Numbered from the stretch's first letter, positions 13,613 to 30,763 are shown. The stretch is 32,000 nucleotides of DNA from Candidatus Electrothrix yaqonensis (GCA_047651235.1 CP178758.1:2940001-2972000); one strand, 5' to 3'. The notes: generated from the letters alone by a model not told the origin. Translations and numbers: made by a program.

Positions 13613-15355
13613 ATGAAAAAAATATTCTTTCTTCTGTGTTGTATCTGCCTTATCGGAGCAGCAGTGTACCTGATCCAGCACCCTGCCCCTCCTGACGTCG
13701 AGCCTGATTATTCTGCTGATTATCTGCCGGAAGATACCCTGTTTCTTTTGGAGCTTACTGACCTGCAGGGGATGACGGAACGTTTTCCCGCATCAGCTCT
13801 GGGCAGACTTTTTTCCAAGCCGGTTATGTATGATATTCTGCGTGAACTGGGAGGCACTGACGAAGATGTACAGCAATACGACAACCTGTATGACGGTCTG
13901 GCCGATGTGCTGACCAATCCGGCTGTCCGGGAAATCTTTGGGGATGATGCGGTCATTGCCCTGCATGCTCCTGATCCGGCGCAGCTCAGACAGAACCCGA
14001 TCAGGGCATTGCAGGACTCCCTGCTGGTTTTCGGCACCTCATCCACGGCAGGCCCCATAGGTCGAGTTGCCCGTGTCATCATGAGTAACGATGTGATCAA
14101 AACATCAATTTCCGGTCTTGACATGACCCGGATCAGACTGGATGAGAATGAACTGCTGTACGGATATACGAAAAAGGGTATTCTTCTTCTGGCCTACGAT
14201 CCGAAAAAAATTGTTGCGGCCGTTCACCGGAAAGAGGATGAAAACGGAAAAGACCTCCGGCAGGCAGTGCCGTTTGCAGCAACTGCGGAATTCCGGGCTG
14301 AAGCCGGGCAGGGGCATGTCTATGCCCGGACCTATCTCAATACAACAGAGCTGAAAACGCTGCTGCGGGCTTCCGGGAACCAGGAACTGAGCCGGGAGCA
14401 GAAAGAAGCCAATGCGTCTCTGGAAGGAGTAACAGCTATCAGCGGTGTGCTTGCCGCAACGCAGGGAGAGCTTCGCCTGCGCGCACAGGCGGAATATGAT
14501 ACCTCCTCCCTGCCGGAAACGGCGAAAGATAGCCATAAAGCATTGCCGGAGAAAAATTTTTCTCTTTCCCTGCTCAACGAAAAGACACTGCTCTATTCCT
14601 GGTTCTCCGCGCTGAACAACGAGGCTGTCCGCCGTCTTCTGTTTAAAGCTGATGCGGAACAGAAGTATGCTGAATTTCAGGAAACGGTGCAGAAGGAACT
14701 TGGCCTGTCTCTTGACCGGCTCATCAAGGCTGCAGGGCCGCAGGCCGGGATAGCAGTTCATGAAATCATCAATGCAGGCATAGTGCCTCTGCCCAAAACG
14801 GTCCTGTTTTTCCAGATACGCGACCGCACGGCTGTTCTGCAGGAAATGAAAAAACTGCGCAAAAAAATTACCGAACAGGGGTTTGCCAAAGAACAGAAAG
14901 AGGAAATTCAGGGGCACACCCTTTATTATTGGACCGTTATGCCGATCGAGGCCACGCATCTGGCCATTGGGCTGACCGACACCATGCTCTATATCGCCAA
15001 CGGCGAGACCGGCCTCAGGGCACTGCTTACCAGCCAACAGGAACCGACAGCTCTGGACAAGACTGCAGCTACTGCATTCGGGGAAACGGCAGGGCAGTGC
15101 ATTGCCGGGGCCAATCAGTTCACCTTTCTCCTCCGTCCGCAGCTGCTCGCGGAACAGGGCGGTACAGCTGCAGACTGGCTCGCCGACATGACCCTGTCCG
15201 ACAGCAATATTTCTATAAAAAAGACCTTAGAGGCAGTGCTGCAACTGATGCGGTCTGTTGACCTTGTTGCGGTCTGCAGTGACCGGGAAGAAGACCATGC
15301 TTCCTTTACGGCAGTCCTGCAAAATGCAGCTGAACTCGGACAGAAAGCGCAATAA
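13613..15355 (+). CDS. Hypothetical N-terminally anchored/secreted protein (possibly DUF3352-like)
   Basis: 580 aa. Hydrophobic N-terminus MKKIFFLLCCICLIGAAVYLI. No catalytic motif recognised. The family assignment is a recollection-level guess. Confidence 0.65.
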   Translation: MKKIFFLLCCICLIGAAVYLIQHPAPPDVEPDYSADYLPEDTLFLLELTDLQGMTERFPASALGRLFSKPVMYDILRELGGTDEDVQQYDNLYDGLADVLTNPAVREIFGDDAVIALHAPDPAQLRQNPIRALQDSLLVFGTSSTAGPIGRVARVIMSNDVIKTSISGLDMTRIRLDENELLYGYTKKGILLLAYDPKKIVAAVHRKEDENGKDLRQAVPFAATAEFRAEAGQGHVYARTYLNTTELKTLLRASGNQELSREQKEANASLEGVTAISGVLAATQGELRLRAQAEYDTSSLPETAKDSHKALPEKNFSLSLLNEKTLLYSWFSALNNEAVRRLLFKADAEQKYAEFQETVQKELGLSLDRLIKAAGPQAGIAVHEIINAGIVPLPKTVLFFQIRDRTAVLQEMKKLRKKITEQGFAKEQKEEIQGHTLYYWTVMPIEATHLAIGLTDTMLYIANGETGLRALLTSQQEPTALDKTAATAFGETAGQCIAGANQFTFLLRPQLLAEQGGTAADWLADMTLSDSNISIKKTLEAVLQLMRSVDLVAVCSDREEDHASFTAVLQNAAELGQKAQ

Positions 15356-22788: not shown

Positions 22789-23345
22789 TTAAAGCCGTTC
22801 TGACGGAACAGCGGCATAATTCCACTTCGGCAGAAACCCGTCGAATTGAATTTTCATATTTTCTTTAAAACCGTCAGCCGTTTTGCGGCCTGTCTCGAAG
22901 AGGAATTCAGATTTTCCATGTGTCGTCCACCAGTTCCGAATACAGGCGCACCCGAATTCGGAGGTGTCACCGCTTGTCCCTAATGTGATACAACCGATAT
23001 TACTGTATATATCATACAGTCCATAGGCGAACCCGCCGTGTGTTTTTTCAGCACTGCGAAAAATGCGTCATCAAGGCCGACGGCGGTCGAGAGGACGGAT
23101 TTACGTCCCCCGCCCGGTTTGCGGATTCGTTCCTCTTTTTCAGGCAGAGGCTGTTTCAGCTCCTCAATCCCGCGACGGACCCGGTCAGAATCACACCGCA
23201 ACATGTCGCATATATACGTTATGCCGCCGTATCCGAACTTTTCCGCTTCAACTGCGGCGTATCGACGGCGGTCTTTTTCAGACAGGCTGCCGTAAAAATT
23301 ACGCATTCGCGTTTCTATCTCAGGAGAATATGTTTTTATCTTCAT
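22789..23345 (-). pseudogene. ISAzo13-family transposase remnant with internal deletion and frameshift
   Basis: The N-terminal 105 aa or so (RRRYAAVEAEKFGYGGITYI...RIRKPGGGRKSVL...HTAGSPMD) match the ISAzo13 HTH region and then stop at 22980. A different frame (22959..22789) encodes a C-terminal tail ...GRKTADGFKENMKIQFDGFLPKWNYAAVPSERL*, like the family's conserved xEWNYTIxP end. The DDE core of about 300 aa is missing. Confidence 0.75.
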
Positions 23346-23471
23346 AACCGGATGAGAATAAACGCAACTATGAAATTGTCAATGACCTGTCAGCAAGTTC
23401 CGTTGTTATTAAATTTTCATTCATAGCCCGGCTGAAAATAAACACTGTCGGCTCCGCTTCCGAGGCAGGCA

Positions 23472-23711
23472 TTGGCCGAAAGATTTTCCGAGAGCTATTT
23501 TGGCTTGATTCTCGATGACCTGCGCTGTCTCCCCGACCGAACAACGTGGTTTTCTCTGCTTCGTGAACTGCTGCTTCCTTCAGGCGATGAATTGGCAGCA
23601 AAATACGGGCAGGAGGAGCTGCGCCCGTTAGAGAAAAAAATACGTCTGCCTCTGCTTTATGCCCGCTATCTGCTGGTCGGACTGCTGAAACGGGTTGTCC
23701 GCCTGCAGTGA
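23472..23711 (+). CDS. Orphan 79-aa ORF, possibly a gene fragment
   Basis: GC-rich ORF with a TTG start and no SD, lying between the IS remnant and the AT-rich block. No family recognised. Confidence 0.2.
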   Translation: MAERFSESYFGLILDDLRCLPDRTTWFSLLRELLLPSGDELAAKYGQEELRPLEKKIRLPLLYARYLLVGLLKRVVRLQ

Positions 23712-23988
23712 CAGGGAGAGCCGGACGCCCGGGCTGCAGCCCGCCTTTCCCCGTTTCCCGCCTTTACTACTGTTGAGTGCTTCTGATCCAGTCTTATTTT
23801 TTCAAGCTGATTGATCTGTTGGATTGTTTTGTGAAAGGAATTTCCTGGTTCGAGGCAAAGACTTCAATCATCCGTAATGCTGTGTAACTCCTAGCGGGGA
23901 AGGAAAAGCAGGGTCTGGAAATCTTCAGATGCTTTCAGGGAATAAATCTGATTATTATTCTTATAATTTTAATATTATCAAATAAATA

Positions 23989-24053
23989 TTGACTTCGTGC
24001 GTCATTAGGTTTAACGTCGGCAAAATTAGGTTGAAGCGGATAACTGAAGTTAT
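23989..24053 (+). promoter_or_regulatory. Candidate promoter (TTGACT-17-TAACGT) plus a 14-bp palindrome ATAACTGAAGTTAT
   Basis: -35-like at 23989-23994 and a weak -10 at 24012-24017. A perfect palindrome at 24040-24053 lies between them and the AAGGAG SD of the NTF2-like gene. The region is very AT-rich. Confidence 0.3.
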
Positions 24054-24096: not shown

Positions 24097-24540
24097 ATGA
24101 ATGCTACACAATTAGCTGCTGTAACCACTGATCCTGCCAGCAAAGCTGTCCTTGAGTTTCTGTCGGTTCTTGAAACCAAAAAAGTAGATAACTTATTAAG
24201 CATATGGGACGAAAATGGTATTTTTGAACTGCCTTTTTCTCATAAAGGAATACCAAGTTTATATCACCCAAAATTTGAAGGACGGCAATGTATCTATGAA
24301 CTCTTCCAAGCATTGCTCCCTGGTGAGAGTTTTAAATTTAAGGAGATTGCATTGTATCCAATGATCAATCAAGAATATGTTTTCATTGAATTCATAGGTG
24401 ATATTACACAACTGGACCGAGGTATAAAATATACGAATCGGTATTGTGCATTAGCGCATACTCGAAAAGGAAAAATTTTATTATTCAGGGAATATTTCCA
24501 TGCAATTATACGACAAAACTTTGAAGCAAGTGGCTTTTGA
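24097..24540 (+). CDS. NTF2-like / SnoaL-like fold protein
   Basis: 147 aa starting at an ATG 6 nt after AAGGAG (the track ORF begins upstream at 23989). Size and pattern (FLSVLETKKVDNLLSIWDENGIFELPF ... YVFIEF ... KILLFREYF) fit the SnoaL/ketosteroid-isomerase-like cone fold. Confidence 0.65.
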   Translation: MNATQLAAVTTDPASKAVLEFLSVLETKKVDNLLSIWDENGIFELPFSHKGIPSLYHPKFEGRQCIYELFQALLPGESFKFKEIALYPMINQEYVFIEFIGDITQLDRGIKYTNRYCALAHTRKGKILLFREYFHAIIRQNFEASGF

Positions 24541-24634
24541 CATTGCAGGTGATATGGATGAACGAATGAACGAATAATTTTGTCATACCTAATGAGCAGT
24601 AACTCTGTAACAGCCTCAACATAGGAAAAGAAAA

Positions 24635-25885
24635 ATGAAAGCCTGTCAATTGAAGTTGAACACACCCGTATTCGAGCGAGAAGTGGTTGATACAAAAAGA
24701 ACTAACAGTTACTGGGTTGAAGCCTTTGATATAGACGGAGACGGTAAATCTGATCTGCTTGGTTACGGATTGGGAGACTCCCAGATTTATACGTTTAGAA
24801 ATCCGACTTGGGAAAAAAGGCTCATTGCTCAGCTGAAAGGAGCTGTCGGAATGGATCATGCTGATATTAACCAGAATGGTTTGAATGATGTGGTGATCTG
24901 TTATCAGTACGGAGCAACAATGCGGGATTGTGATCCGGAAGGTGGAAAAATTGTATGGCTGGAAAACCCTGGCACCCCGGACGGAGAATGGAAGCATCAT
25001 TATATCGGCAGAGCAACGGCCATGCATCGTTTACGAGTCGGGTATTTTACGCAGACCGAAAAACTTGAGGTATTAGGGTTGCCGATCGTAGGAAAACCTG
25101 GAGACATCTATTCAGATGTACCGGTGGTGCTGTTTACGCAGCCAGATGACCTCAGCACTGCTCAGGAATGGAACAGGACGATTATCAATGACAGTTATTA
25201 CCATATCATTCATGGTGTTTCTAAAAAGAAATTTAATAAATCCAGGAATGGCTCAGAACTCGATTCAGTCATCCTGGCCTCCCAGGAAGGTATTTCATGG
25301 TTGTATTATGATCAAGAACAGCGGAATTGGAAAATCGAGCTGCTTGGCCAAGGTGAACAAGAAGAATTTAAACTGACAGGATACCGGGGAAGTGGCAACT
25401 TGGATGCAGGCAAAATAGGCGACGATGACTTCGCTTATATTCCAACGGTGGAACCGTTTCATGGGAACAGAATTGCTGTTTATGTAAAAAGAACAGCGTC
25501 CCTTTTAAACTCAGTACGCTGGAAGCGCTTTGTCCTGGATACGTTTAAAGATCCAGATGATCATGGTGAGGGGCCTGGTCATCATGTAGTTTGTGCAGAC
25601 TTTGACGGAGACGGTGATGACGAATTCCTAGTTGCACTGCGAGGACCTAAACCTTGGCAGGGAGTCTACTGCTACAAGGCTATTGATCTGCAGAACGGAG
25701 TTTTTGTTAAATGGCATATCACGCAGGATTCTGCTGCAAGGATTGCCTTGGCCGATTTCAATGGAGACGGTCGTCTTGACTTTGCCACTATGGGGTATTG
25801 GGTCCCGGGATATTACCAGACTGAACAGCCTGAGATCGTCGTTTTTAGAAATGCTTTTGCTGAACCGGGTAGAAAGAATGGATGA
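24635..25885 (+). CDS. FG-GAP/VCBS-repeat beta-propeller protein (candidate aldos-2-ulose dehydratase-like propeller)
   Basis: 416 aa with no signal peptide. Repeated Ca-binding-type loops FDIDGDGKSDLL, ADINQNGLNDVV, ADFDGDGDDEFL and ADFNGDGRLDFA, spaced about 55-60 aa apart, are consistent with a 7-bladed propeller. Confidence 0.85.
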   Translation: MKACQLKLNTPVFEREVVDTKRTNSYWVEAFDIDGDGKSDLLGYGLGDSQIYTFRNPTWEKRLIAQLKGAVGMDHADINQNGLNDVVICYQYGATMRDCDPEGGKIVWLENPGTPDGEWKHHYIGRATAMHRLRVGYFTQTEKLEVLGLPIVGKPGDIYSDVPVVLFTQPDDLSTAQEWNRTIINDSYYHIIHGVSKKKFNKSRNGSELDSVILASQEGISWLYYDQEQRNWKIELLGQGEQEEFKLTGYRGSGNLDAGKIGDDDFAYIPTVEPFHGNRIAVYVKRTASLLNSVRWKRFVLDTFKDPDDHGEGPGHHVVCADFDGDGDDEFLVALRGPKPWQGVYCYKAIDLQNGVFVKWHITQDSAARIALADFNGDGRLDFATMGYWVPGYYQTEQPEIVVFRNAFAEPGRKNG

Positions 25886-25937
25886 TCCTGCAACGAATTT
25901 GGCAGATCAAGGTACATACTCAGGAGGATAAATCAAG

Positions 25938-26657
25938 ATGACTGCTGCATACAACAAGGTAACATCCGTCAACTTTGCAAGCGAACATATAACAGCATAC
26001 GCTGTCAGCAACGTGCGGGATTTTCACATCAATAAACGCTCTATTGTTGTGAATATGGGATCGGAACTGATCTATTTTGATGAAGAGCCCAAGAAGGGAC
26101 TGTTACCCAGAAAATCAACGATCCTACAGAACAAAAGGATAGAATCGGCTGTGTTGGTCATGGTGCTTGAGGTCCACAGCAGGATCAATCTCGGCAATGT
26201 GATTCTCGGCAAAGAGTGGGACAGCGCGGAAAATTTATTCGGGGATGCCCTGAAAGGTGTGCCTCTATGGAAATCTCCTCAGGTTGAAATAGGAAAAATT
26301 ACACTCAATCCTTTTGCTGCGTTGGGCCAAGAACAGCAGGGAGATGCTGCGGTTACTTTCAACATCAAGGTCAACATCTGGTTTACTACTGAGTGTGCCA
26401 ACTGCACTATTCATAATCAGCATGATTTTATCGAATTTCATACCCAGATTGCCGGAACCGGTCGTATGCAGAAATTTTCCGACGATACGATTGACACCCT
26501 TTATGAAGATGTGATCCTAGGTGAAGGACAAAGCCACGATATATTCTGTACCGCCTTGGATGACGGTCGCAGCTTCAAGTATCCTTGGCACCAGTACTAT
26601 TCAGATACAGACTGTATCTGGATGGCTACGGAGTTACATCCCCTGCCTGCTCTTTAA
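25938..26657 (+). CDS. Cupin-like metalloprotein, unknown function
   Basis: 239 aa. AGGAGG SD. The C-terminal half has a cupin-type ligand pattern H159-N-Q-H162-D-F-I-E166-F-H168...G-T-G (nt 26412-26441), followed by GEGQSHDIF and YPWHQYY. Confidence 0.6.
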   Translation: MTAAYNKVTSVNFASEHITAYAVSNVRDFHINKRSIVVNMGSELIYFDEEPKKGLLPRKSTILQNKRIESAVLVMVLEVHSRINLGNVILGKEWDSAENLFGDALKGVPLWKSPQVEIGKITLNPFAALGQEQQGDAAVTFNIKVNIWFTTECANCTIHNQHDFIEFHTQIAGTGRMQKFSDDTIDTLYEDVILGEGQSHDIFCTALDDGRSFKYPWHQYYSDTDCIWMATELHPLPAL

Positions 26658-26761
26658 ACGGGCTGGTCGAACATGTTGATGTATGTCGCTATGAGATTAC
26701 CCATTCATGGCGGCATTACCGATCCGGCAGTTAGATGAATACGGGCAAATCTTGCGAGATA

Positions 26762-26839
26762 ATAACTAACTGAAATAAAAAATAAGTTATCAATACATAC
26801 TATAGCTCAAGTCAAATGACTTGACACCTAGGATATAAT
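26762..26839 (+). promoter_or_regulatory. AT-rich intergenic region with two inverted repeats and a TATAAT box
   Basis: ATAACT-N17-AGTTAT at 26762-26790. An 18-bp perfect palindrome TCAAGTCA-AA-TGACTTGA at 26807-26824. TATAAT at 26834-26839, only 3 nt before the ATG at 26843. Confidence 0.3.
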
Positions 26840-26842
26840 GGC

Positions 26843-27607
26843 ATGGAAAATTTTATGGCGATAGCCGTTTCTTCCTGGAAGGGAACATTAAGATTAATAA
26901 TAATTTTTACATGCTTCCTGCTGCTGCTGGCAGCTGTTGTATTCATTTTAGCGAACTTAGTTCATAAAACAGGTGCAGCAGTTTCTATATCAGGAACAAC
27001 AATTAGTATTGGGTCGAAAGAAAGGTTAGATTCTGCATTGGTAAATCCGATAAACTGGACAGATACAAAGATTGATATAAAGAAAGGAGATTGTTTTATT
27101 CTTGATGCAACAGGAAGTGTTAATGTTGCTCTGGGGCATATGAATCAGGCATTAGATACTTTTGCCGAGATTTCTTCCAGTAAAAAAGACATGAAAATTG
27201 AACTATTTACTGAAAAGGAAATAAAAAGATCTTTATTTCCTTTTCCTTGGAACGGTCCAGAAGGACTTAATCTGAAAGACGTAAATGATCAGAATGTGAT
27301 AGACCGAATTAAAACGTCACGTAACAGATTTATTCATCCCAATGGAGAGATAGGGCAACTATTAGCTTTCATCTCAACAAGTGGCAGCTGCCCAGATATA
27401 TATTCTCAAGAGGAACCGAAAGGAATGATTCATCCCTATTTCGGGCCAAGCACTACTCATACGGCCAAGGTGTCTGGAAGATTATGTTTCGTTATTAATG
27501 ACGTAACAACAGAAGAGGTAAAATATAAGAAATTGATCTGGCAAGATAATACTGGTTTTTTTTCAATAAAAATCCATATTAAGTCGAACAAAACCAGTTT
27601 ACTTTGA
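26843..27607 (+). CDS. Membrane-anchored protein with a PA-IL (LecA)-like lectin-fold domain
   Basis: 254 aa. One N-terminal TM helix (LRLIIIFTCFLLLLAAVVFILANLV). The pattern KKGDCFILDATGSVNVA ... IGQLLAFIS ... GRLCFVINDV...WQDNTGFFSIKIHI parallels LecA GDVITIVAAG ... GALVMKIG ... ITLIYNDV..YGNNSGSFSVNI. The start could instead be the ATG at 26855. Confidence 0.55.
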   Translation: MENFMAIAVSSWKGTLRLIIIFTCFLLLLAAVVFILANLVHKTGAAVSISGTTISIGSKERLDSALVNPINWTDTKIDIKKGDCFILDATGSVNVALGHMNQALDTFAEISSSKKDMKIELFTEKEIKRSLFPFPWNGPEGLNLKDVNDQNVIDRIKTSRNRFIHPNGEIGQLLAFISTSGSCPDIYSQEEPKGMIHPYFGPSTTHTAKVSGRLCFVINDVTTEEVKYKKLIWQDNTGFFSIKIHIKSNKTSLL

Positions 27608-27623
27608 ATTTCAGACAACCTAT

Positions 27624-27640
27624 CTGATTTGTTACGCAAC
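27624..27640. repeat. Fourth copy of the CTGAT..GTTACGCA motif
   Basis: CTGATTTGTTACGCAAC compared with CTGATGTTACGCAGC at 22594. It is in direct orientation, 58 nt upstream of the GH31 start. Confidence 0.5.
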
Positions 27641-27646
27641 AACCGA

Positions 27647-27664
27647 AAAAGGCAATAGCCTTTT
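27647..27664 (+). terminator. Weak hairpin with T-run after the lectin-like gene
   Basis: AAAAGGC-aata-GCCTTTT followed by ATTTAATAA. The stem has only 3 G:C pairs, so it is at most a leaky terminator. Confidence 0.3.
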
Positions 27665-27697
27665 ATTTAATAACCCAGCTTATGGAGGAAAAAAGCC

Positions 27698-30600
27698 GTG
27701 TCAACAATCATTTCGCCAGCAGATGCCGTTTTATCGGATCAGATTTTTTCTGAGCAGGAAGCGTATAAATTCCTTAAGGTTGAGCAGTATTTTTCCAGGT
27801 ACAAGGAATGGGACACCCTAGATACCGTCGCCTCCCATTCCTTTGATGCAGCAGCAAAATCTCTGGCCCTGAATTTTACCGAAAGTGACGACAAATCATG
27901 CAGCATGTGCATTCATTTCCTACAGAAGGACACGTTCCGGGTTCGTTTCAACCCAGGCAAAATAGCGGATGACTATACTGCTGAGAATACCCGTTCGGTC
28001 ATTCGCAATACGGTTGACGATCTGCAGAGACTGCTGGAACAGAAAGAACAATTCCAGATTGATGCAGCTGAAGGCAGCGGAAAGATCGAACTGACCACAA
28101 AGGGTGCTGACAATCAGCCTGTAATGCAGGTCGTGGTCACCCATGCTCCCTTTGCGATTCAGGTCTTCTGCTTTTTCCAAGGCGAAGCCTTCCAGGTCTG
28201 GCAGACAGCAGAAACGCCGATTTACTATACACCCAACGGCCGGGAAGATTATGCCGTGATTCAGGCTGTCACAAAGCCTGCCAGTGCAAAGTACATCGGC
28301 TTCGGCGAACAGGGAGGCCAGTCCCTGAGCAAGAATACCGCGCAGGTGAATTATTTCAATTTTGACAATATGCGGTATCGGCAGGTGTATAATCACGGTC
28401 CCTTGGATGTCCGGGAACCTCTGTATCACTCAGACCCGTTCTTTATGGAGTTCAACGGTGTACCTACACAGCAGAGCGTCAACGGTATATTTATTGATAA
28501 TCCCGGTCAGGTGCTCATGGATATCGGATACCTCAATTCCGGCCGCTATATGTTCGGCACCCGTTTCGGCGATCTGGACTATTATTTTTTCGCGGGTAAA
28601 AAGCCTGTCGATGTAGTCGATAGCTTTACGTCCATTGTGGGCAGATCCCGTCTGAAGCCGCGTTATTGTCTGGGCTATCATCAGGGCTGCTACGGCTATA
28701 ACAGGCGGGACATTCTGGAATGGGCTGTGCGAAGATACCGGGAATACCAGATTCCGCTGGATGGCCTGCATGTGGATGTGGATGTTCAGCATAAGTACCA
28801 GACCTTCACGATTGATGAGCAGAAATTTCCCAATCCGTATGAGATGTTTCATAACCTGAAAGAACAGGGAATAAAATGCAGCACCAACATCACGCCGGTC
28901 ATCAGCAGAGAAGATCCGAGATATTCAACGTATACTCAGGCCTTGGCCAACGATTATTTTGTTCGCGACAAGCGCTATGATCCAGCCAATCCTGAAAGCA
29001 AGTATTATCAGCTCTACGGCGGCGGCGGTGAATATTGCCCGAATAACGGTTGGGTTGACGGGTTCAACAGCGGTGAGCCGTATATTGGCGAGGTTTATTA
29101 CGGAAAGGATGGAGCCGGTCAGGATTTAGGCACATCGGGCCATTATGCCGACCTGGGCAGAAAAGAGGTGCGGCACTGGTGGGGCACCCAATACCAGTAC
29201 CTCTTTAATATGGGGTTGGAAATGGTCTGGCAGGACATGACCACCCCGGCTATCCGGGATAACCGGGGCGATATGAAAGGCTTTCCTTTCCGTTTACTGG
29301 TGACCGATGATTTTTATGGGGAAGCATCTGCCAAGCTGACTCCTGCCATCAAGGTGTGGAACCTATATTCTTATAATCTTCATAAGGCCACCTACCACGG
29401 ACTCAACAACCTGGAGGGCAGGGATAACAAACGCAATTTTATCATCGGGCGGGGCAGCTTTACCGGTTCGCACCGCTATGCCGGTCTGTGGACAGGGGAT
29501 AATTCTTCGGACTGGGATTTTTTGAAAATGAATGTATCCCAGGCCCTGTCCCTGGGAATGTGCGGCGTTGTGATCAACGGCCAGGATATCGGCGGATTTG
29601 AGGCATCAAATGCGGACGGCGGAAAATGGGCCAGCCCGGAACTTCTGATCCGCTGGACTGCTGCCGGTGCCTTTCTGCCGTGGTTCAGGAACCATTATGT
29701 CCGCAAGGGACGCAAAGAATTCCAGGAACCGTTTATGTATGAGGAATGGTTCCAGCAATATCGAGGCGGCCAGCTGCCTGAACCGCAGGATCTGTACCGT
29801 AATGTCCTGCCGATCTGCAAACATTACATTGAGCTGCGCTACCGTCTGCTCCAGCTCTTTTACGATGCAATGTTTGAAAATACCCTGACCGGTCGGCCTA
29901 TCTGTCGTCCCCTGTTCCTCAACGATCCTGATGACAAGTCGCTCTATAATGATAAGGAGTCCTTCTTGGATAACGAATTCTTTGTCGGCAAAGATCTCCT
30001 GATCGCTCCTGTTCTCGAACCCCAAGTTCAGAATAACAATCAGGGAAAAAGGGATGTGTATCTGCCATCAGGCAGTAACTGGTATTGTTTTATGGATAAT
30101 ACCATGCCGCTCGGACCTGCTGTTGACGGAGGCACTACGATAAGGGATTTTGATGCGAATATCAATACCAACGATAACCATATTCACTTCATTGTTCCGG
30201 CGTATGTACGTGCAGGGGCTGTTATCCCGACCATTGAGGTTGAACAGTACGTGGGCCAGCGCAACAAGGAAGGGCAGCCCAATTCGATTACGCTCAATAT
30301 TTATCCCGGTGCGGACGGAGAATACACCATGTATCTGGATGATGGAGAAAGCCGTTCCTCAGCTGATACGTCCGCCCATCCGGCTGAATTGGGCGGTGAT
30401 CCGCAGGCCAAGGGGGAGTATCGCAAGACAAAAATTACCCATACCGGCAACGGCAAGAAAACTCGACAAATTACAGTGGAACGTATCCATGACGGATACA
30501 CGCCCAAATTTGAAGACTATTTCTTTGTCGCTATTCTGCATGATCCCTCTGAAACAAAAGGGGCTTCAGGCTGTTTAAATAAGGTCAGCATAGACGGCCA

Positions 30601-30763
30601 GCAGATCGAATGCATCTCAGGAGGTACATCGGAACAGCGGAGCAACAGTTTATGGGCATCTCCCGGAAACGCATGGTATTACAACGAGGATATCAAGATT
30701 AGCTTCGTCAAGGTATCTGATAACAGTTCGAAAATTGTGATTAATGCGGAGTATGCTGAGTAA
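27698..30763 (+). CDS. Glycoside hydrolase family 31 enzyme with a lyase-type nucleophile motif (candidate alpha-1,4-glucan lyase)
   Basis: 1021 aa. GTG start 9 nt after GGAGG. No signal peptide. GH31 motifs MVWQDMTTPA (Asp513), RYAGLWTGDNSSDW (Asp601), GQDIGGF and RWTAAGAFLPWFRNHY. The family call is firm. Lyase activity is a hypothesis. Confidence 0.9.
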   Translation: MSTIISPADAVLSDQIFSEQEAYKFLKVEQYFSRYKEWDTLDTVASHSFDAAAKSLALNFTESDDKSCSMCIHFLQKDTFRVRFNPGKIADDYTAENTRSVIRNTVDDLQRLLEQKEQFQIDAAEGSGKIELTTKGADNQPVMQVVVTHAPFAIQVFCFFQGEAFQVWQTAETPIYYTPNGREDYAVIQAVTKPASAKYIGFGEQGGQSLSKNTAQVNYFNFDNMRYRQVYNHGPLDVREPLYHSDPFFMEFNGVPTQQSVNGIFIDNPGQVLMDIGYLNSGRYMFGTRFGDLDYYFFAGKKPVDVVDSFTSIVGRSRLKPRYCLGYHQGCYGYNRRDILEWAVRRYREYQIPLDGLHVDVDVQHKYQTFTIDEQKFPNPYEMFHNLKEQGIKCSTNITPVISREDPRYSTYTQALANDYFVRDKRYDPANPESKYYQLYGGGGEYCPNNGWVDGFNSGEPYIGEVYYGKDGAGQDLGTSGHYADLGRKEVRHWWGTQYQYLFNMGLEMVWQDMTTPAIRDNRGDMKGFPFRLLVTDDFYGEASAKLTPAIKVWNLYSYNLHKATYHGLNNLEGRDNKRNFIIGRGSFTGSHRYAGLWTGDNSSDWDFLKMNVSQALSLGMCGVVINGQDIGGFEASNADGGKWASPELLIRWTAAGAFLPWFRNHYVRKGRKEFQEPFMYEEWFQQYRGGQLPEPQDLYRNVLPICKHYIELRYRLLQLFYDAMFENTLTGRPICRPLFLNDPDDKSLYNDKESFLDNEFFVGKDLLIAPVLEPQVQNNNQGKRDVYLPSGSNWYCFMDNTMPLGPAVDGGTTIRDFDANINTNDNHIHFIVPAYVRAGAVIPTIEVEQYVGQRNKEGQPNSITLNIYPGADGEYTMYLDDGESRSSADTSAHPAELGGDPQAKGEYRKTKITHTGNGKKTRQITVERIHDGYTPKFEDYFFVAILHDPSETKGASGCLNKVSIDGQQIECISGGTSEQRSNSLWASPGNAWYYNEDIKISFVKVSDNSSKIVINAEYAE

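What the first reader, a model, noticed from the sequence alone, without database searches (positions are those of the whole stretch)
24097..30763. Candidate bacterial anhydrofructose pathway: lyase-type GH31 next to a propeller/cupin/lectin gene set
Five same-strand genes with short gaps encode an NTF2-like protein, an FG-GAP beta-propeller, a cupin-like protein, a lectin-fold protein and a 1021-aa cytoplasmic GH31 enzyme. The GH31 active-site motif resembles alpha-1,4-glucan lyase rather than alpha-glucosidase. In red algae and fungi, GH31 glucan lyase converts glycogen or starch to 1,5-anhydro-D-fructose. Aldos-2-ulose dehydratase/isomerase (AUDH; propeller + cupins + lectin domain) then converts that product to ascopyrone M and microthecin. 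To my knowledge the characterised lyases and AUDH are all eukaryotic, so a bacterial, gene-split version acting on intracellular glycogen would be new. glgX lies 17 kb upstream in the same window. Two caveats apply. The four upstream genes are much more AT-rich than the GH31 gene, and a weak hairpin separates them, so co-function is inferred from adjacency and domain logic only.
Basis: partly seen in the sequence, partly recalled or inferred. Interest (0 to 1): 0.88.

Follow-up and report, generated by a model that had tools for sequence, protein, structure and literature searches.

The report
Bacterial anhydrofructose pathway gene cluster
A cable bacterium carries, side by side, a lyase-type GH31 enzyme and a two-gene version of the fungal enzyme AUDH, which suggests that bacteria can break down stored glycogen by the 1,5-anhydrofructose route so far described only in fungi and red algae.

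Summary
The window is from Candidatus Electrothrix sp. YB6.

- **P2 (416 aa)** is a full-length homologue of the AUDH beta-propeller: PDB 4a7k E 2e-84, 41% identity, all four invariant histidines kept.
- **P3 (239 aa)** has no Pfam domain and is annotated as hypothetical. It models as a bicupin (pLDDT 96) whose best PDB matches are the three AUDH entries (TMq 0.65 against about 0.3 for other bicupins).
- **The GH31 protein (P5)** has the lyase signatures: VWQDMTTPA with no Glu at nucleophile+3, Asn397 where hydrolases have Ile, and PWFRNHY plus two lyase-type insertions. It groups with the Gracilariopsis glucan lyase to the exclusion of 72 hydrolase-type GH31 proteins (bootstrap 1.00; 0.92 without motif columns).
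- **Synteny:** P2-P3-GH31 recurs, in varying order, in cyanobacteria, Bacteroidota, Bacillota, a betaproteobacterium and Electrothrix.
- **P1 (SnoaL fold)** is a recurrent accessory gene.
- **P4** is not lectin-like by any test, has no homologues, and is a strain-specific insertion.
- **glgX** is real but unlinked.

I found no bacterial glucan lyase or AUDH in the literature I could search. No activity has been tested, and about 40% of close GH31 relatives lack these neighbours. This is a well-supported new variant of a known pathway that needs biochemistry.

The parts
24097..24540 (+). P1: 147-aa NTF2/SnoaL-fold protein. It is a recurrent accessory gene of the cassette and a candidate enone/keto-sugar tautomerase or dehydratase (inferred).
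   Evidence: Pfam SnoaL_2 3.8e-7. Best PDB match is B. subtilis YesE 1s5a at 6.5e-12. Homologues at 62-69% identity lie between the propeller and cupin genes in L001, L002, L012, L015, L089, L095 and L096, and next to the cupin gene in L120, whose contig ends there. RBS AAGGAG lies 7 nt upstream of the ATG. GC3 is 0.26.
24635..25885 (+). P2: 416-aa seven-bladed FG-GAP/VCBS beta-propeller, homologous over its full length to the dehydratase (propeller) domain of fungal aldos-2-ulose dehydratase/isomerase (AUDH).
   Evidence: Pfam PF22301 AUDH_beta_propeller 2.3e-60. PDB 4a7k 2.3e-84, query 10-406 aligned to AUDH 19-432. 41% identity to AUDH, with 90 of 115 bacterial invariant positions kept, including H131, H193, H276 and H316. 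Hundreds of stand-alone bacterial homologues of about 415 aa.
25938..26657 (+). P3: 239-aa compact bicupin, a counterpart of the AUDH bicupin (isomerase) domain. It has a His/Glu metal-type motif (H159, H162, E166, H168) and a YPWHQYY motif.
   Evidence: No Pfam or PDB sequence hit. AlphaFold2 pLDDT 96, pTM 0.92. Foldseek PDB top three are AUDH 4a7z, 4a7k and 4a7y (E 3e-10 to 1e-8, TMq 0.65), against about 0.3 for all other bicupins. hhalign of the family against the AUDH_Cupin domain of the bacterial fusion P0057 gives probability 96.4%, E 1.2e-9. Adjacent to the propeller gene in about 70 of 80 genome loci.
26843..27607 (+). P4: 254-aa orphan protein with an N-terminal hydrophobic anchor. 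It is a strain-specific insertion between P3 and GH31 and is probably not part of the pathway.
   Evidence: No Pfam, NCBIfam or PDB hit at E up to 10. No tblastn hit in any related locus. In L081, L116 and L122, P3 directly abuts GH31. GC3 is 0.29.
27647..27664 (+). Weak 7-bp hairpin with a U-rich tail in the P4-GH31 spacer. It is followed by a GGAGG ribosome-binding site for the GTG start of GH31.
   Evidence: RNA fold of 27595-27710 gives -19.5 kcal/mol with z = -1.3 against shuffles. Not reported by the terminator scan.
27698..30763 (+). P5: 1021-aa GH31 protein of the alpha-1,4-glucan-lyase type with no signal peptide. Predicted nucleophile/base D513, acid D630, N397 (equivalent to lyase N459), and T516 in place of the hydrolase Glu.
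   Evidence: Pfam GH31 domains. The nucleophile segment's best PDB hit is lyase 2x2h, 3e-10 against 2.7e-5 for the next. It shares PWFRNHY and two insertions with the lyase. Motif split across 116 GH31 proteins. In the lyase-like clade, 0 members have Glu at +3 and 35 of 37 have Asn at 397; outside it the figures are 72 of 75 and 1 of 75. Bootstrap 1.00/0.92 for a split uniting P5 and the algal lyase against all 72 hydrolase-type sequences. These residues are invariant in 40 family members. Foldseek gives 2x2h the highest TMq, 0.75.

Best explanation
This is a bacterial, cytoplasmic version of the anhydrofructose pathway of alpha-glucan breakdown.

Step 1 (inferred from sequence, clade membership and fold): the GH31 protein P5 acts as an exo-alpha-1,4-glucan lyase. 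D513 forms the glucosyl-enzyme intermediate with help from acid D630. The hydrolase Glu at +3 is replaced by Thr, and the nucleophile is hydrogen-bonded by N397. Under those conditions D513 abstracts H-2 and releases 1,5-anhydro-D-fructose (AF) instead of glucose. The substrate would be glycogen or maltodextrin.

Step 2 (inferred from homology to AUDH): the propeller protein P2 dehydrates AF at a metal centre to ascopyrone M.

Step 3 (inferred): the bicupin P3 isomerises that enone at its own metal centre to microthecin or a related product.

In fungal AUDH the two centres sit about 60 Å apart on separate domains (my recollection of Claesson et al. 2012). Encoding them as two genes is therefore mechanistically unproblematic.

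P1 (NTF2/SnoaL fold) is an optional accessory, possibly an ascopyrone tautomerase. P4 is an unrelated insertion. The three-gene core P2-P3-GH31 is a mobile cassette shared among cyanobacteria, Bacteroidota, Bacillota, Proteobacteria and cable bacteria.
For: - P2 is the AUDH propeller.
- P3 is an AUDH-type bicupin.
- A bacterial propeller + AUDH_Cupin fusion exists (P0057), which links the two families.
- GH31 lyase discriminators: the review states that lyase N459 is Ile in hydrolases and that the water-activating residues are absent. P5 has N397 and T516, invariant in 40 relatives.
- P5 shares PWFRNHY and two insertions with the lyase.
- Phylogeny: bootstrap 1.00, and 0.92 with motif columns removed.
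- Fold: the lyase has the highest TMq.
- Synteny: the P2-P3-GH31 triad occurs in 17 of 80 propeller-centred genome loci from four or more phyla, in a different gene order in Marinilabiliaceae, and in metagenomes.
- Every readable GH31 neighbour of P2/P3 in the unbiased, propeller-seeded set is of the WQDMTTP/CSTNITP type.
- An amylo-1,6-glucosidase-like gene follows GH31 in four loci, which fits a branched alpha-glucan substrate.
- None of P2, P3 or P5 has a signal peptide (sequences).
Against: - No activity has been measured for any bacterial member.
- P5 has Thr, not the algal Val, at nucleophile+3, and the clade varies there (T/C/D/S/V). It may therefore be functionally heterogeneous.
- By whole-protein score the algal lyase is not the closest solved structure, and Foldseek E-values tie with a dextranase.
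- The tree rests on only 200 columns, because I could recover only lyase fragments, and it uses neighbour-joining.
- Roughly 40% of close GH31 relatives with adequate flanks have neither P2 nor P3 nearby. About 10 loci have P3 but no P2, including E. scaldis. The simple three-step scheme is therefore not universal, and P3 may act directly on AF.
- Most P3-P2 pairs (actinomycetes, Enterobacterales) have no GH31 at all and sit in a different context, so their substrate need not be AF.
- I could not check the AUDH metal ligands residue by residue.
- No exporter or resistance gene for a toxic enone is conserved in the cassette.
- In this strain the genes differ in composition and P4 interrupts them.
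Confidence: 0.6

Rival explanations
1. P5 is a hydrolase or transglucosidase of unusual specificity, for example on a compatible-solute alpha-glucoside or a specialised alpha-glucan, that merely shares ancestry and motifs with the lyases. P2 and P3 process a different keto-sugar, so the cluster is a sugar-modification or salvage pathway that does not pass through anhydrofructose.
For: - All database annotations call the family alpha-glucosidase.
- The best whole-length PDB hits are glucosidases.
- Foldseek E-values tie with a dextranase.
- Position +3 varies across the clade, including Asp in some members, which could activate water.
- Many family members lack P2/P3 neighbours.
- P3-P2 pairs function without GH31 in actinomycetes.
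Against: - P5 lacks the Glu that is conserved in 72 of 75 hydrolase-type relatives. It has the Asn that the review identifies as the lyase determinant.
- From my recollection of Rozeboom et al. 2013, a single Glu-to-Val change shifts a GH31 hydrolase towards lyase activity.
- The only characterised members of this clade are lyases.
- The only known pairing of a GH31 product with an AUDH-type enzyme is AF.
- Adjacency is specific to the lyase type.
Confidence: 0.25
2. The adjacency in this genome is incidental. An AT-rich horizontally acquired island (P1-P4) landed next to a resident GH31 gene, and the genes are transcribed and used independently.
For: - GC3 differs stepwise: 0.26-0.50 for P1-P4, 0.56 for P5 and 0.60-0.72 for host genes.
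- There is a hairpin with a U-tail and a separate RBS before GH31.
- P4 is an orphan insertion.
- E. scaldis has P3-GH31 without the propeller.
Against: - The same families are adjacent in at least 34 other loci across several phyla, with shuffled gene order. That is the signature of functional coupling, not accident.
- P3-GH31 adjacency is shared with other Electrothrix genomes, so at least that pair is ancestral in the genus.
- The hairpin is not significant, and no terminator was called.
Confidence: 0.1
3. The cassette is catabolic or detoxifying rather than biosynthetic. AF, whether made by P5 or taken up, is a reactive 2-keto sugar, and P2, P3 and P1 convert it into a metabolite that feeds central metabolism or is harmless. 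On this reading the product is not an antimicrobial such as microthecin.
For: - All the proteins are cytoplasmic, and no exporter is conserved.
- The tightest GH31 partner is the bicupin alone.
- A debranching-type glycosidase is co-located in some loci, as in a degradative operon.
- The review notes that bacteria do catabolise AF by other routes.
Against: No reductase, kinase or aldolase that could carry the carbon onward is conserved next to the cassette. The known chemistry of AUDH ends in microthecin or cortalcerone.
Confidence: 0.3

Closest known systems
Alpha-1,4-glucan lyase (EC 4.2.2.13), GH31, Gracilariopsis lemaneiformis (PDB 2x2h) and the fungal Morchella/Peziza lyases
   Same: - Same family and domain architecture, and similar length (1021 against 1027 residues in the crystal).
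- WQDMT-x-PA nucleophile motif without Glu at +3.
- Asn at the N459 position.
- PWFRNHY motif and two shared insertions.
- Same clade in the tree.
- Highest TMq in the fold search.
   Different: - Bacterial origin.
- Thr instead of Val at +3.
- Only about 30-42% identity to the algal enzyme in the recovered catalytic fragments, and a lower whole-length score than several glucosidases.
- Much closer (44-50%) to uncharacterised fungal GH31 proteins from Calocera, Fusarium, Ceratobasidium and Cirrosporium.
- Activity is untested.
Aldos-2-ulose dehydratase/isomerase (AUDH), Phanerochaete chrysosporium (PDB 4a7k/4a7y/4a7z)
   Same: - P2 aligns with the whole propeller domain at 41% identity and keeps the invariant His/Asp/Glu positions.
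- P3 has the bicupin fold, with AUDH as its best structural match, and shares motifs with the AUDH_Cupin domain.
   Different: - Split into two genes.
- The bicupin is about 60 residues shorter and so divergent that Pfam AUDH_Cupin does not detect it.
- No lectin domain.
- Bacterial and cytoplasmic.
- Often accompanied by a SnoaL-fold protein.
- I did not verify the metal ligands.
Fungal anhydrofructose pathway enzymes of Anthracobia melaloma (AF dehydratase plus ascopyrone tautomerase; Yu et al. 2004, cited)
   Same: The pathway logic has separate polypeptides for dehydration and tautomerisation downstream of a GH31 lyase.
   Different: As far as I know the sequences of those fungal enzymes are not available for comparison. 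P1 as the tautomerase analogue is pure inference from its fold.
Bacterial AF catabolism via AF reductase (Sinorhizobium morelense) and the glycyl-radical 1,5-anhydroglucitol-6-phosphate pathway in gut bacteria
   Same: These are bacterial handling of the same metabolite family.
   Different: Those routes consume exogenous AF or AG and use unrelated enzymes (Gfo/Idh/MocA reductase, PFL-like glycyl radical enzymes). None of those enzymes is encoded in this cassette.

Membership tests
GH31 (CAZy) / Pfam PF01055 | Significant match to the GH31 catalytic TIM-barrel plus the N-terminal and C-terminal beta-sandwich domains | tested here: met
   PF01055 3.3e-77, PF13802 1.1e-12, PF21365 2.8e-17, DUF5110 3e-7.
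GH31 | Catalytic nucleophile Asp (W-x-D-M) and acid/base Asp (D-x-G-G-F) | tested here: met
   D513 in VWQDMTTPA and D630 in GQDIGGF align with the catalytic Asp residues of the lyase and the glucosidases. Both are invariant in 40 relatives.
Alpha-1,4-glucan lyase subgroup of GH31 | No Glu at nucleophile+3 (Val556 in the algal lyase; Glu in the hydrolases' W-x-D-M-N-E) | tested here: met
   P5 has T516. None of the 38 clade members has Glu there, against 72 of 75 outside the clade. The residue is Thr, not Val.
Alpha-1,4-glucan lyase subgroup of GH31 | Asn at the position of N459, which hydrogen-bonds the nucleophile (Ile in hydrolases; review) | tested here: met
   N397 in CSTNITP aligns with the Ile of the hydrolase xxIIDP motif. 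35 of 37 clade members have Asn, against 1 of 75 outside. Equivalence to lyase N459 rests on alignment arithmetic, not on a displayed residue-level alignment.
Alpha-1,4-glucan lyase subgroup of GH31 | Phylogenetic placement with characterised lyases | tested here: met
   An NJ tree on 200 columns puts P5 and the algal lyase on one side of a split and all 72 hydrolase-type sequences on the other. Bootstrap is 1.00, or 0.92 without motif columns. Limits: lyase fragments only, and no fungal characterised lyase included.
Alpha-1,4-glucan lyase subgroup of GH31 | Releases 1,5-anhydro-D-fructose from alpha-1,4-glucans | not testable with these tools
   Requires an enzyme assay.
AUDH (aldos-2-ulose dehydratase/isomerase) | Seven-bladed propeller domain of the PF22301 type | tested here: met
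   P2: PF22301 2.3e-60; 4a7k 2.3e-84 over AUDH residues 19-432.
AUDH | Bicupin domain (Pfam PF18637 AUDH_Cupin) | tested here: inconclusive
   P3 does not match PF18637 by hmmscan. However, it is a bicupin whose best structural match is AUDH. Its C-terminal cupin is homologous to that of a PF18637 protein by hhalign at 96.4% probability.
AUDH | C-terminal lectin domain on a single 900-aa polypeptide | tested here: not met
   The propeller and bicupin are separate genes. P4 shows no lectin similarity and is not conserved. The bacterial fusion P0057 (728 aa) also lacks this domain.
AUDH | Two catalytic Zn sites (propeller and second cupin) | not tested
   I could not retrieve the ligand identities from the held literature. 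Indirect evidence: all four His residues invariant in the bacterial propellers are identical in AUDH. P3 also keeps a His/Glu cluster (H159, H162, E166, H168, H218) that is invariant or nearly so in 43 relatives.
AUDH | Converts AF to ascopyrone M and microthecin (and glucosone to cortalcerone) | not testable with these tools
   Requires an enzyme assay.
NTF2-like / SnoaL_2 (P1) | Match to PF12680 above the gathering score | tested here: met
   31.1 bits against a cut-off of 27; YesE 1s5a at 6.5e-12.

The most novel reading that the evidence does not exclude
Many bacteria may possess a third route of glycogen breakdown besides phosphorolysis and hydrolysis. These include numerous filamentous cyanobacteria, some Bacteroidota and Bacillota, and cable bacteria. 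In this route a cytoplasmic GH31 glucan lyase makes 1,5-anhydrofructose. A two-protein AUDH (propeller plus compact bicupin, sometimes with a SnoaL-fold tautomerase) then turns it into ascopyrone- or microthecin-type enones. On this reading the eukaryotic glucan lyase and the 900-aa fungal AUDH descend from this mobile bacterial cassette by transfer and gene fusion.
Probability: 0.45. Interest if true: 0.8.

Novelty: new variant of a known kind. Interest (0 to 1): 0.72.

Why it matters
The anhydrofructose pathway is described as a fungal and red-algal speciality, and a 2025 review still says so. A comprehensive 2024 review of prokaryotic alpha-glucan enzymes does not mention GH31 in the part of its text that is held.

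If the prediction holds:
- It would add a new catabolic or secondary-metabolic fate for bacterial glycogen.
- It would give a function to a widespread family of hypothetical proteins (the P3 family has no Pfam domain).
- It would re-annotate hundreds of bacterial "alpha-glucosidases" as lyases.
- It would provide easily expressed bacterial enzymes for making 1,5-anhydrofructose, ascopyrones and microthecin, compounds of pharmaceutical and food interest.
- It would offer an evolutionary origin for the eukaryotic enzymes.

For cable bacteria and cyanobacteria it raises a further question. They may convert storage glucan into antimicrobial enones, for instance under stress.

Tried and rejected
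1. **P4 as a lectin-domain analogue: rejected.** There are no hits in Pfam, NCBIfam or PDB at E up to 10 and no homologue in 163 loci. Both structure-prediction slots went to P3 and P5, so P4's fold remains unknown.
2. **glgX as supporting context: rejected as evidence.** It is on the opposite strand, 13 kb upstream of P1 and 17 kb upstream of GH31, with unrelated genes in between.
3. **A pyranose oxidase neighbour, which would favour a glucosone-to-cortalcerone route: not found** within 10 kb of the triad in Oscillatoria princeps or Pseudanabaena.
4. **Key papers could not be read.** Rozeboom 2013, Arumapperuma 2023 and Okuyama 2016 are not held. Statements about the Glu-to-Val experiment, CAZy subfamilies and the AUDH zinc sites therefore rest on my own recollection.
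5. **A full-length algal lyase sequence could not be obtained.** Only fragments 491-551 and 606-781 were recovered from printed alignments. The N459 region was matched but not displayed.
6. **A strict WQD-motif clade is not a bipartition** (bootstrap 0; exact 38-member clade 0.28). The cause is rogue or degenerate members (P0390, P0401, P0413). I replaced this test with the split test.
7. **Promoter and terminator scans are uninformative**, with counts equal to the shuffled expectation.
8. **The ORF at 22980-23345 looked to me like a transposase remnant**, but it has no Pfam hit.
9. **Many conserved-neighbour clusters in high-GC loci were shadow ORFs** and were discarded.

Full report
**Source and anatomy.** The window matches Candidatus Electrothrix sp. 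YB6, a cable bacterium, at 100% protein identity. The spacers are 94, 52, 185 and 90 nt. P1 has a good ribosome-binding site, and P5 starts at a GTG preceded by GGAGG. None of P2, P3 or P5 has an N-terminal signal sequence. P4 has a hydrophobic N-terminal anchor.

**The propeller (P2).** Pfam assigns P2 to AUDH_beta_propeller (PF22301, 2.3e-60).
- Against solved structures its only real hit is Phanerochaete chrysosporium aldos-2-ulose dehydratase (4a7k, 2.3e-84). Residues 10-406 align to AUDH 19-432, which is the whole propeller domain.
- Identity is 41%.
- Of 115 positions invariant in 15 diverse bacterial homologues, 90 are identical in AUDH. These include all four invariant histidines (H131, H193, H276, H316) and many acidic residues.
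- Hundreds of stand-alone bacterial proteins of about 415 aa belong to this family.

**The cupin (P3).** P3 has no Pfam, NCBIfam or PDB sequence match. Its roughly 275 detectable relatives are all annotated as hypothetical.
- An AlphaFold2 model built on 43 relatives is very confident (pLDDT 96, pTM 0.92) and is a bicupin.
- Its three best PDB matches are the three AUDH entries (E 3e-10 to 1e-8, TMq 0.65). Every other bicupin scores about 0.3.
- A bacterial 728-aa protein (P0057) fuses the propeller to a canonical AUDH_Cupin domain (6.6e-84).
- The P3 family profile aligns to the last cupin of that domain with 96.4% probability (E 1.2e-9). The two share the NC-x-x-HN...F-x-E-x-H and YPWH motifs.

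P2 plus P3 are therefore a gene-split AUDH without the lectin domain.

**The GH31 protein (P5).** Whole-length searches place the algal alpha-1,4-glucan lyase (2x2h, 4.8e-48) among ordinary glucosidases, which is not decisive either way. The catalytic segments are more informative.
- *Nucleophile segment.* Its best PDB match is the lyase (3e-10 against 2.7e-5). The motifs are GLEMVWQDMTTPA in P5, GLDFVWQDMTVPA in the lyase and WNDMNEPA in a hydrolase.
- *Acid/base segment.* P5 and the lyase share LPWFRNHY and two insertions that the hydrolases lack.
- *Stated discriminators.* A 2025 review says that lyase N459, which hydrogen-bonds the nucleophile/base D553, is Ile in hydrolases, and that the water-activating residues are missing in lyases.
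- *N397.* P5 N397 (CSTNITP) aligns with the Ile of the hydrolase xxIIDP motif, and by alignment arithmetic with N459.
- *T516.* It occupies the position of the hydrolase Glu, which is Val556 in the lyase.
- *Split across the family.* Across 116 GH31 representatives the split is clean. In the 38-member clade holding P5, its bacterial and fungal relatives and the algal lyase, none has Glu at +3 and 35 of 37 have the Asn. Outside the clade, 72 of 75 have Glu and 1 of 75 has Asn.
- *Tree.* In neighbour-joining trees on the 200 columns covered by the recovered lyase fragments, one split puts P5 and the algal lyase on one side and all 72 hydrolase-type sequences on the other. Its bootstrap support is 1.00, and 0.92 when the 19 motif columns are removed.
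- *Invariance.* N397, D360, D513, T516, D630 and H666 are invariant in 40 family members.
- *Fold.* A moderate-quality model (pLDDT 77) has its highest query-normalised TM-score with the lyase (0.75 against 0.69 or less), although the E-value ties with a dextranase.
- *Closest eukaryotic relatives.* These are uncharacterised fungal GH31 proteins of 1050-1091 aa at 44-50% identity.

**Synteny.**
- *Propeller-centred scan of one genome per species.* P2 and P3 are adjacent in about 70 of 80 loci. A lyase-type GH31 joins them in 17 loci. These come from cyanobacteria (Pseudanabaena, Scytonema, Nostoc, Rivularia, Mastigocoleus, Oscillatoria princeps, Microseira), Bacteroidota (Crocinitomicaceae, Saccharicrinis), Bacillota/Clostridiales and Propionivibrio.
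- *Gene order.* In a Marinilabiliaceae MAG the order is GH31-P2-P3.
- *Other Electrothrix.* In E. scaldis, P3 directly precedes GH31 with no propeller nearby.
- *GH31-centred metagenome scan.* About 17 of some 30 evaluable close relatives have P3 immediately upstream, and about 9 also have P2. About 13 have neither. A distant lyase-like subclade (36-42% identity) never has them.
- *GH31 type.* Every readable GH31 neighbour in the propeller-seeded set is WQDMTTP/CSTNITP.

The core is therefore P2-P3-GH31, and P3 is the tightest partner of GH31.

**Accessory and unrelated genes.**
- P1 is a SnoaL/NTF2-fold protein. It recurs at 62-69% identity in eight other loci.
- An amylo-1,6-glucosidase-like (alpha/alpha)6 protein follows GH31 in four loci. 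A debranching-type activity fits a branched glucan substrate.
- P4 has no homologue anywhere and no recognisable fold by sequence. It is very AT-rich and is absent where close relatives have P3 abutting GH31. It is a strain-specific insertion, not the lectin domain.
- glgX is real but unlinked.
- The hairpin before GH31 is real but insignificant.
- GC3 rises stepwise from P1 and P4 (0.26-0.29) through P2 and P3 (0.42-0.50) to P5 (0.56) and host genes (0.60-0.72). Together with an integrase next to the Pseudanabaena cassette, this suggests a mobile, mosaic cassette.

**Mechanism proposed.**
1. P5 cleaves cytoplasmic alpha-1,4-glucan by the GH31 lyase mechanism, giving 1,5-anhydrofructose.
2. 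P2 dehydrates it to ascopyrone M.
3. P3 isomerises that to microthecin or a related enone.
4. P1 may tautomerise ascopyrones.

Homology, motifs, clade, fold and synteny are shown. All the chemistry, the substrate and the product are inferred. By my recollection of Claesson et al. 2012, AUDH has two independent metal centres about 60 Å apart. That makes a split enzyme plausible, but I could not verify the ligands.

**Caveats.**
- The residue at +3 is Thr, not Val.
- The clade is heterogeneous at that site.
- The tree is limited to 200 columns and neighbour-joining.
- Many GH31 relatives lack the partners.
- Most P3-P2 pairs (actinomycetes, Serratia, Xenorhabdus, Paraburkholderia) lack GH31. They sit among UDP-GlcNAc 2-epimerase, BBE-type FAD oxidase, SDR, nucleotidyltransferase, acyltransferase and MFS genes. 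AUDH-like pairs clearly also serve other keto-sugar chemistry.

**Novelty.** Searches of the held literature found no bacterial glucan lyase or AUDH. Recent reviews assign the lyases to fungi and red algae. A review of prokaryotic alpha-glucan enzymes does not mention GH31 in the text held. Databases already label some P2 homologues by the Pfam domain name, and CAZy subfamilies may already group these GH31 proteins with the lyases, which I could not check. This is best described as a new variant of a known pathway: bacterial, gene-split and lectin-less. It is well supported in silico and directly testable.

Noticed in passing
L016-L080 (for example L042:2340-4052, L058:415-1683, L071:4122-4916, L071:11326-12633, L030:771-1688): In actinomycetes, Serratia, Xenorhabdus and Paraburkholderia the cupin-propeller pair (order P3-P2) occurs without any GH31. 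The Streptomyces neighbours examined encode a UDP-GlcNAc 2-epimerase, a BBE-type FAD oxidase, an SDR, a nucleotidyltransferase, a membrane acyltransferase and an MFS transporter. This looks like a sugar-derived secondary-metabolite cluster in which a split AUDH would act on a different keto-sugar.
   Followed up: partly
L141-L163 (for example L154:10795-11589); proteins P0268 and P0285: DUF6209 is encoded directly after the GH31 gene of a distant lyase-like subclade. It is also fused to P3 homologues in two cyanobacterial proteins (377 aa). This is a second, uncharacterised partner of lyase-type GH31 enzymes.
   Followed up: partly
L081:10001-13969 (Ca. Electrothrix scaldis) and loci L087, L088, L101, L102, L104, L109, L139: P3-GH31 pairs occur without a propeller gene nearby. 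The bicupin is the tighter partner of the GH31 enzyme and may act on its product directly. It is unknown whether the propeller is encoded elsewhere in these genomes.
   Followed up: partly
L001:15686-18283, L089:11256-13820 (also L002, L015): A protein of about 860 aa with GDE_C/six-hairpin glycosidase similarity (amylo-alpha-1,6-glucosidase-like) directly follows GH31 in the loci that also carry P1. This extends the cassette to five genes.
   Followed up: partly
window 26843-27607 (P4) and 24097-24540 (P1): P1 and P4 have extremely low GC3 (0.26 and 0.29), against 0.42-0.56 for P2, P3 and P5 and 0.60-0.72 for host genes. The cluster is compositionally mosaic. P4 is an orphan with a membrane anchor and an unknown fold.
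   Followed up: partly
window 22980-23345 (minus strand) and 23350-24050: A 121-aa ORF with no Pfam hit, which to my eye resembles the N-terminus of a transposase, lies just upstream of the cluster. About 700 nt of non-coding sequence separate it from P1, and that stretch becomes very AT-rich near P1. This may mark the edge of an acquired island.
   Followed up: partly
protein P0332: A P3-family protein (43% identity, 236 aa) is annotated in the sea anemone Actinia tenebrosa. This is either horizontal transfer into an animal or contamination of the assembly.
   Followed up: no
protein P0390: A 1013-aa member nested in the lyase-like clade has MICHNISNHS in place of VWQDMTTPA, so the nucleophile Asp is lost. 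It may be a pseudo-enzyme or a carbohydrate-binding derivative.
   Followed up: no
L001:8466-9437; protein P0315: A phage-type integrase lies immediately upstream of the Pseudanabaena cassette. The Cylindrospermum stagnale PCC 7417 P3 homologue is plasmid-borne. Both are consistent with the cassette being mobile.
   Followed up: no
L011:6874-8271: A cytochrome P450 gene lies about 1.7 kb upstream of the triad in Oscillatoria princeps. The review mentions an unidentified P450-like hydroxylase in rhizobial anhydrofructose catabolism. It is not conserved in other loci.
   Followed up: no
window 13613-15355 and L001:757-2412: A DUF3352 protein lies about 9-10 kb upstream of the cassette both in this window (weak match, below Pfam's cut-off) and in Pseudanabaena (strong match). 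This is probably coincidence.
   Followed up: no
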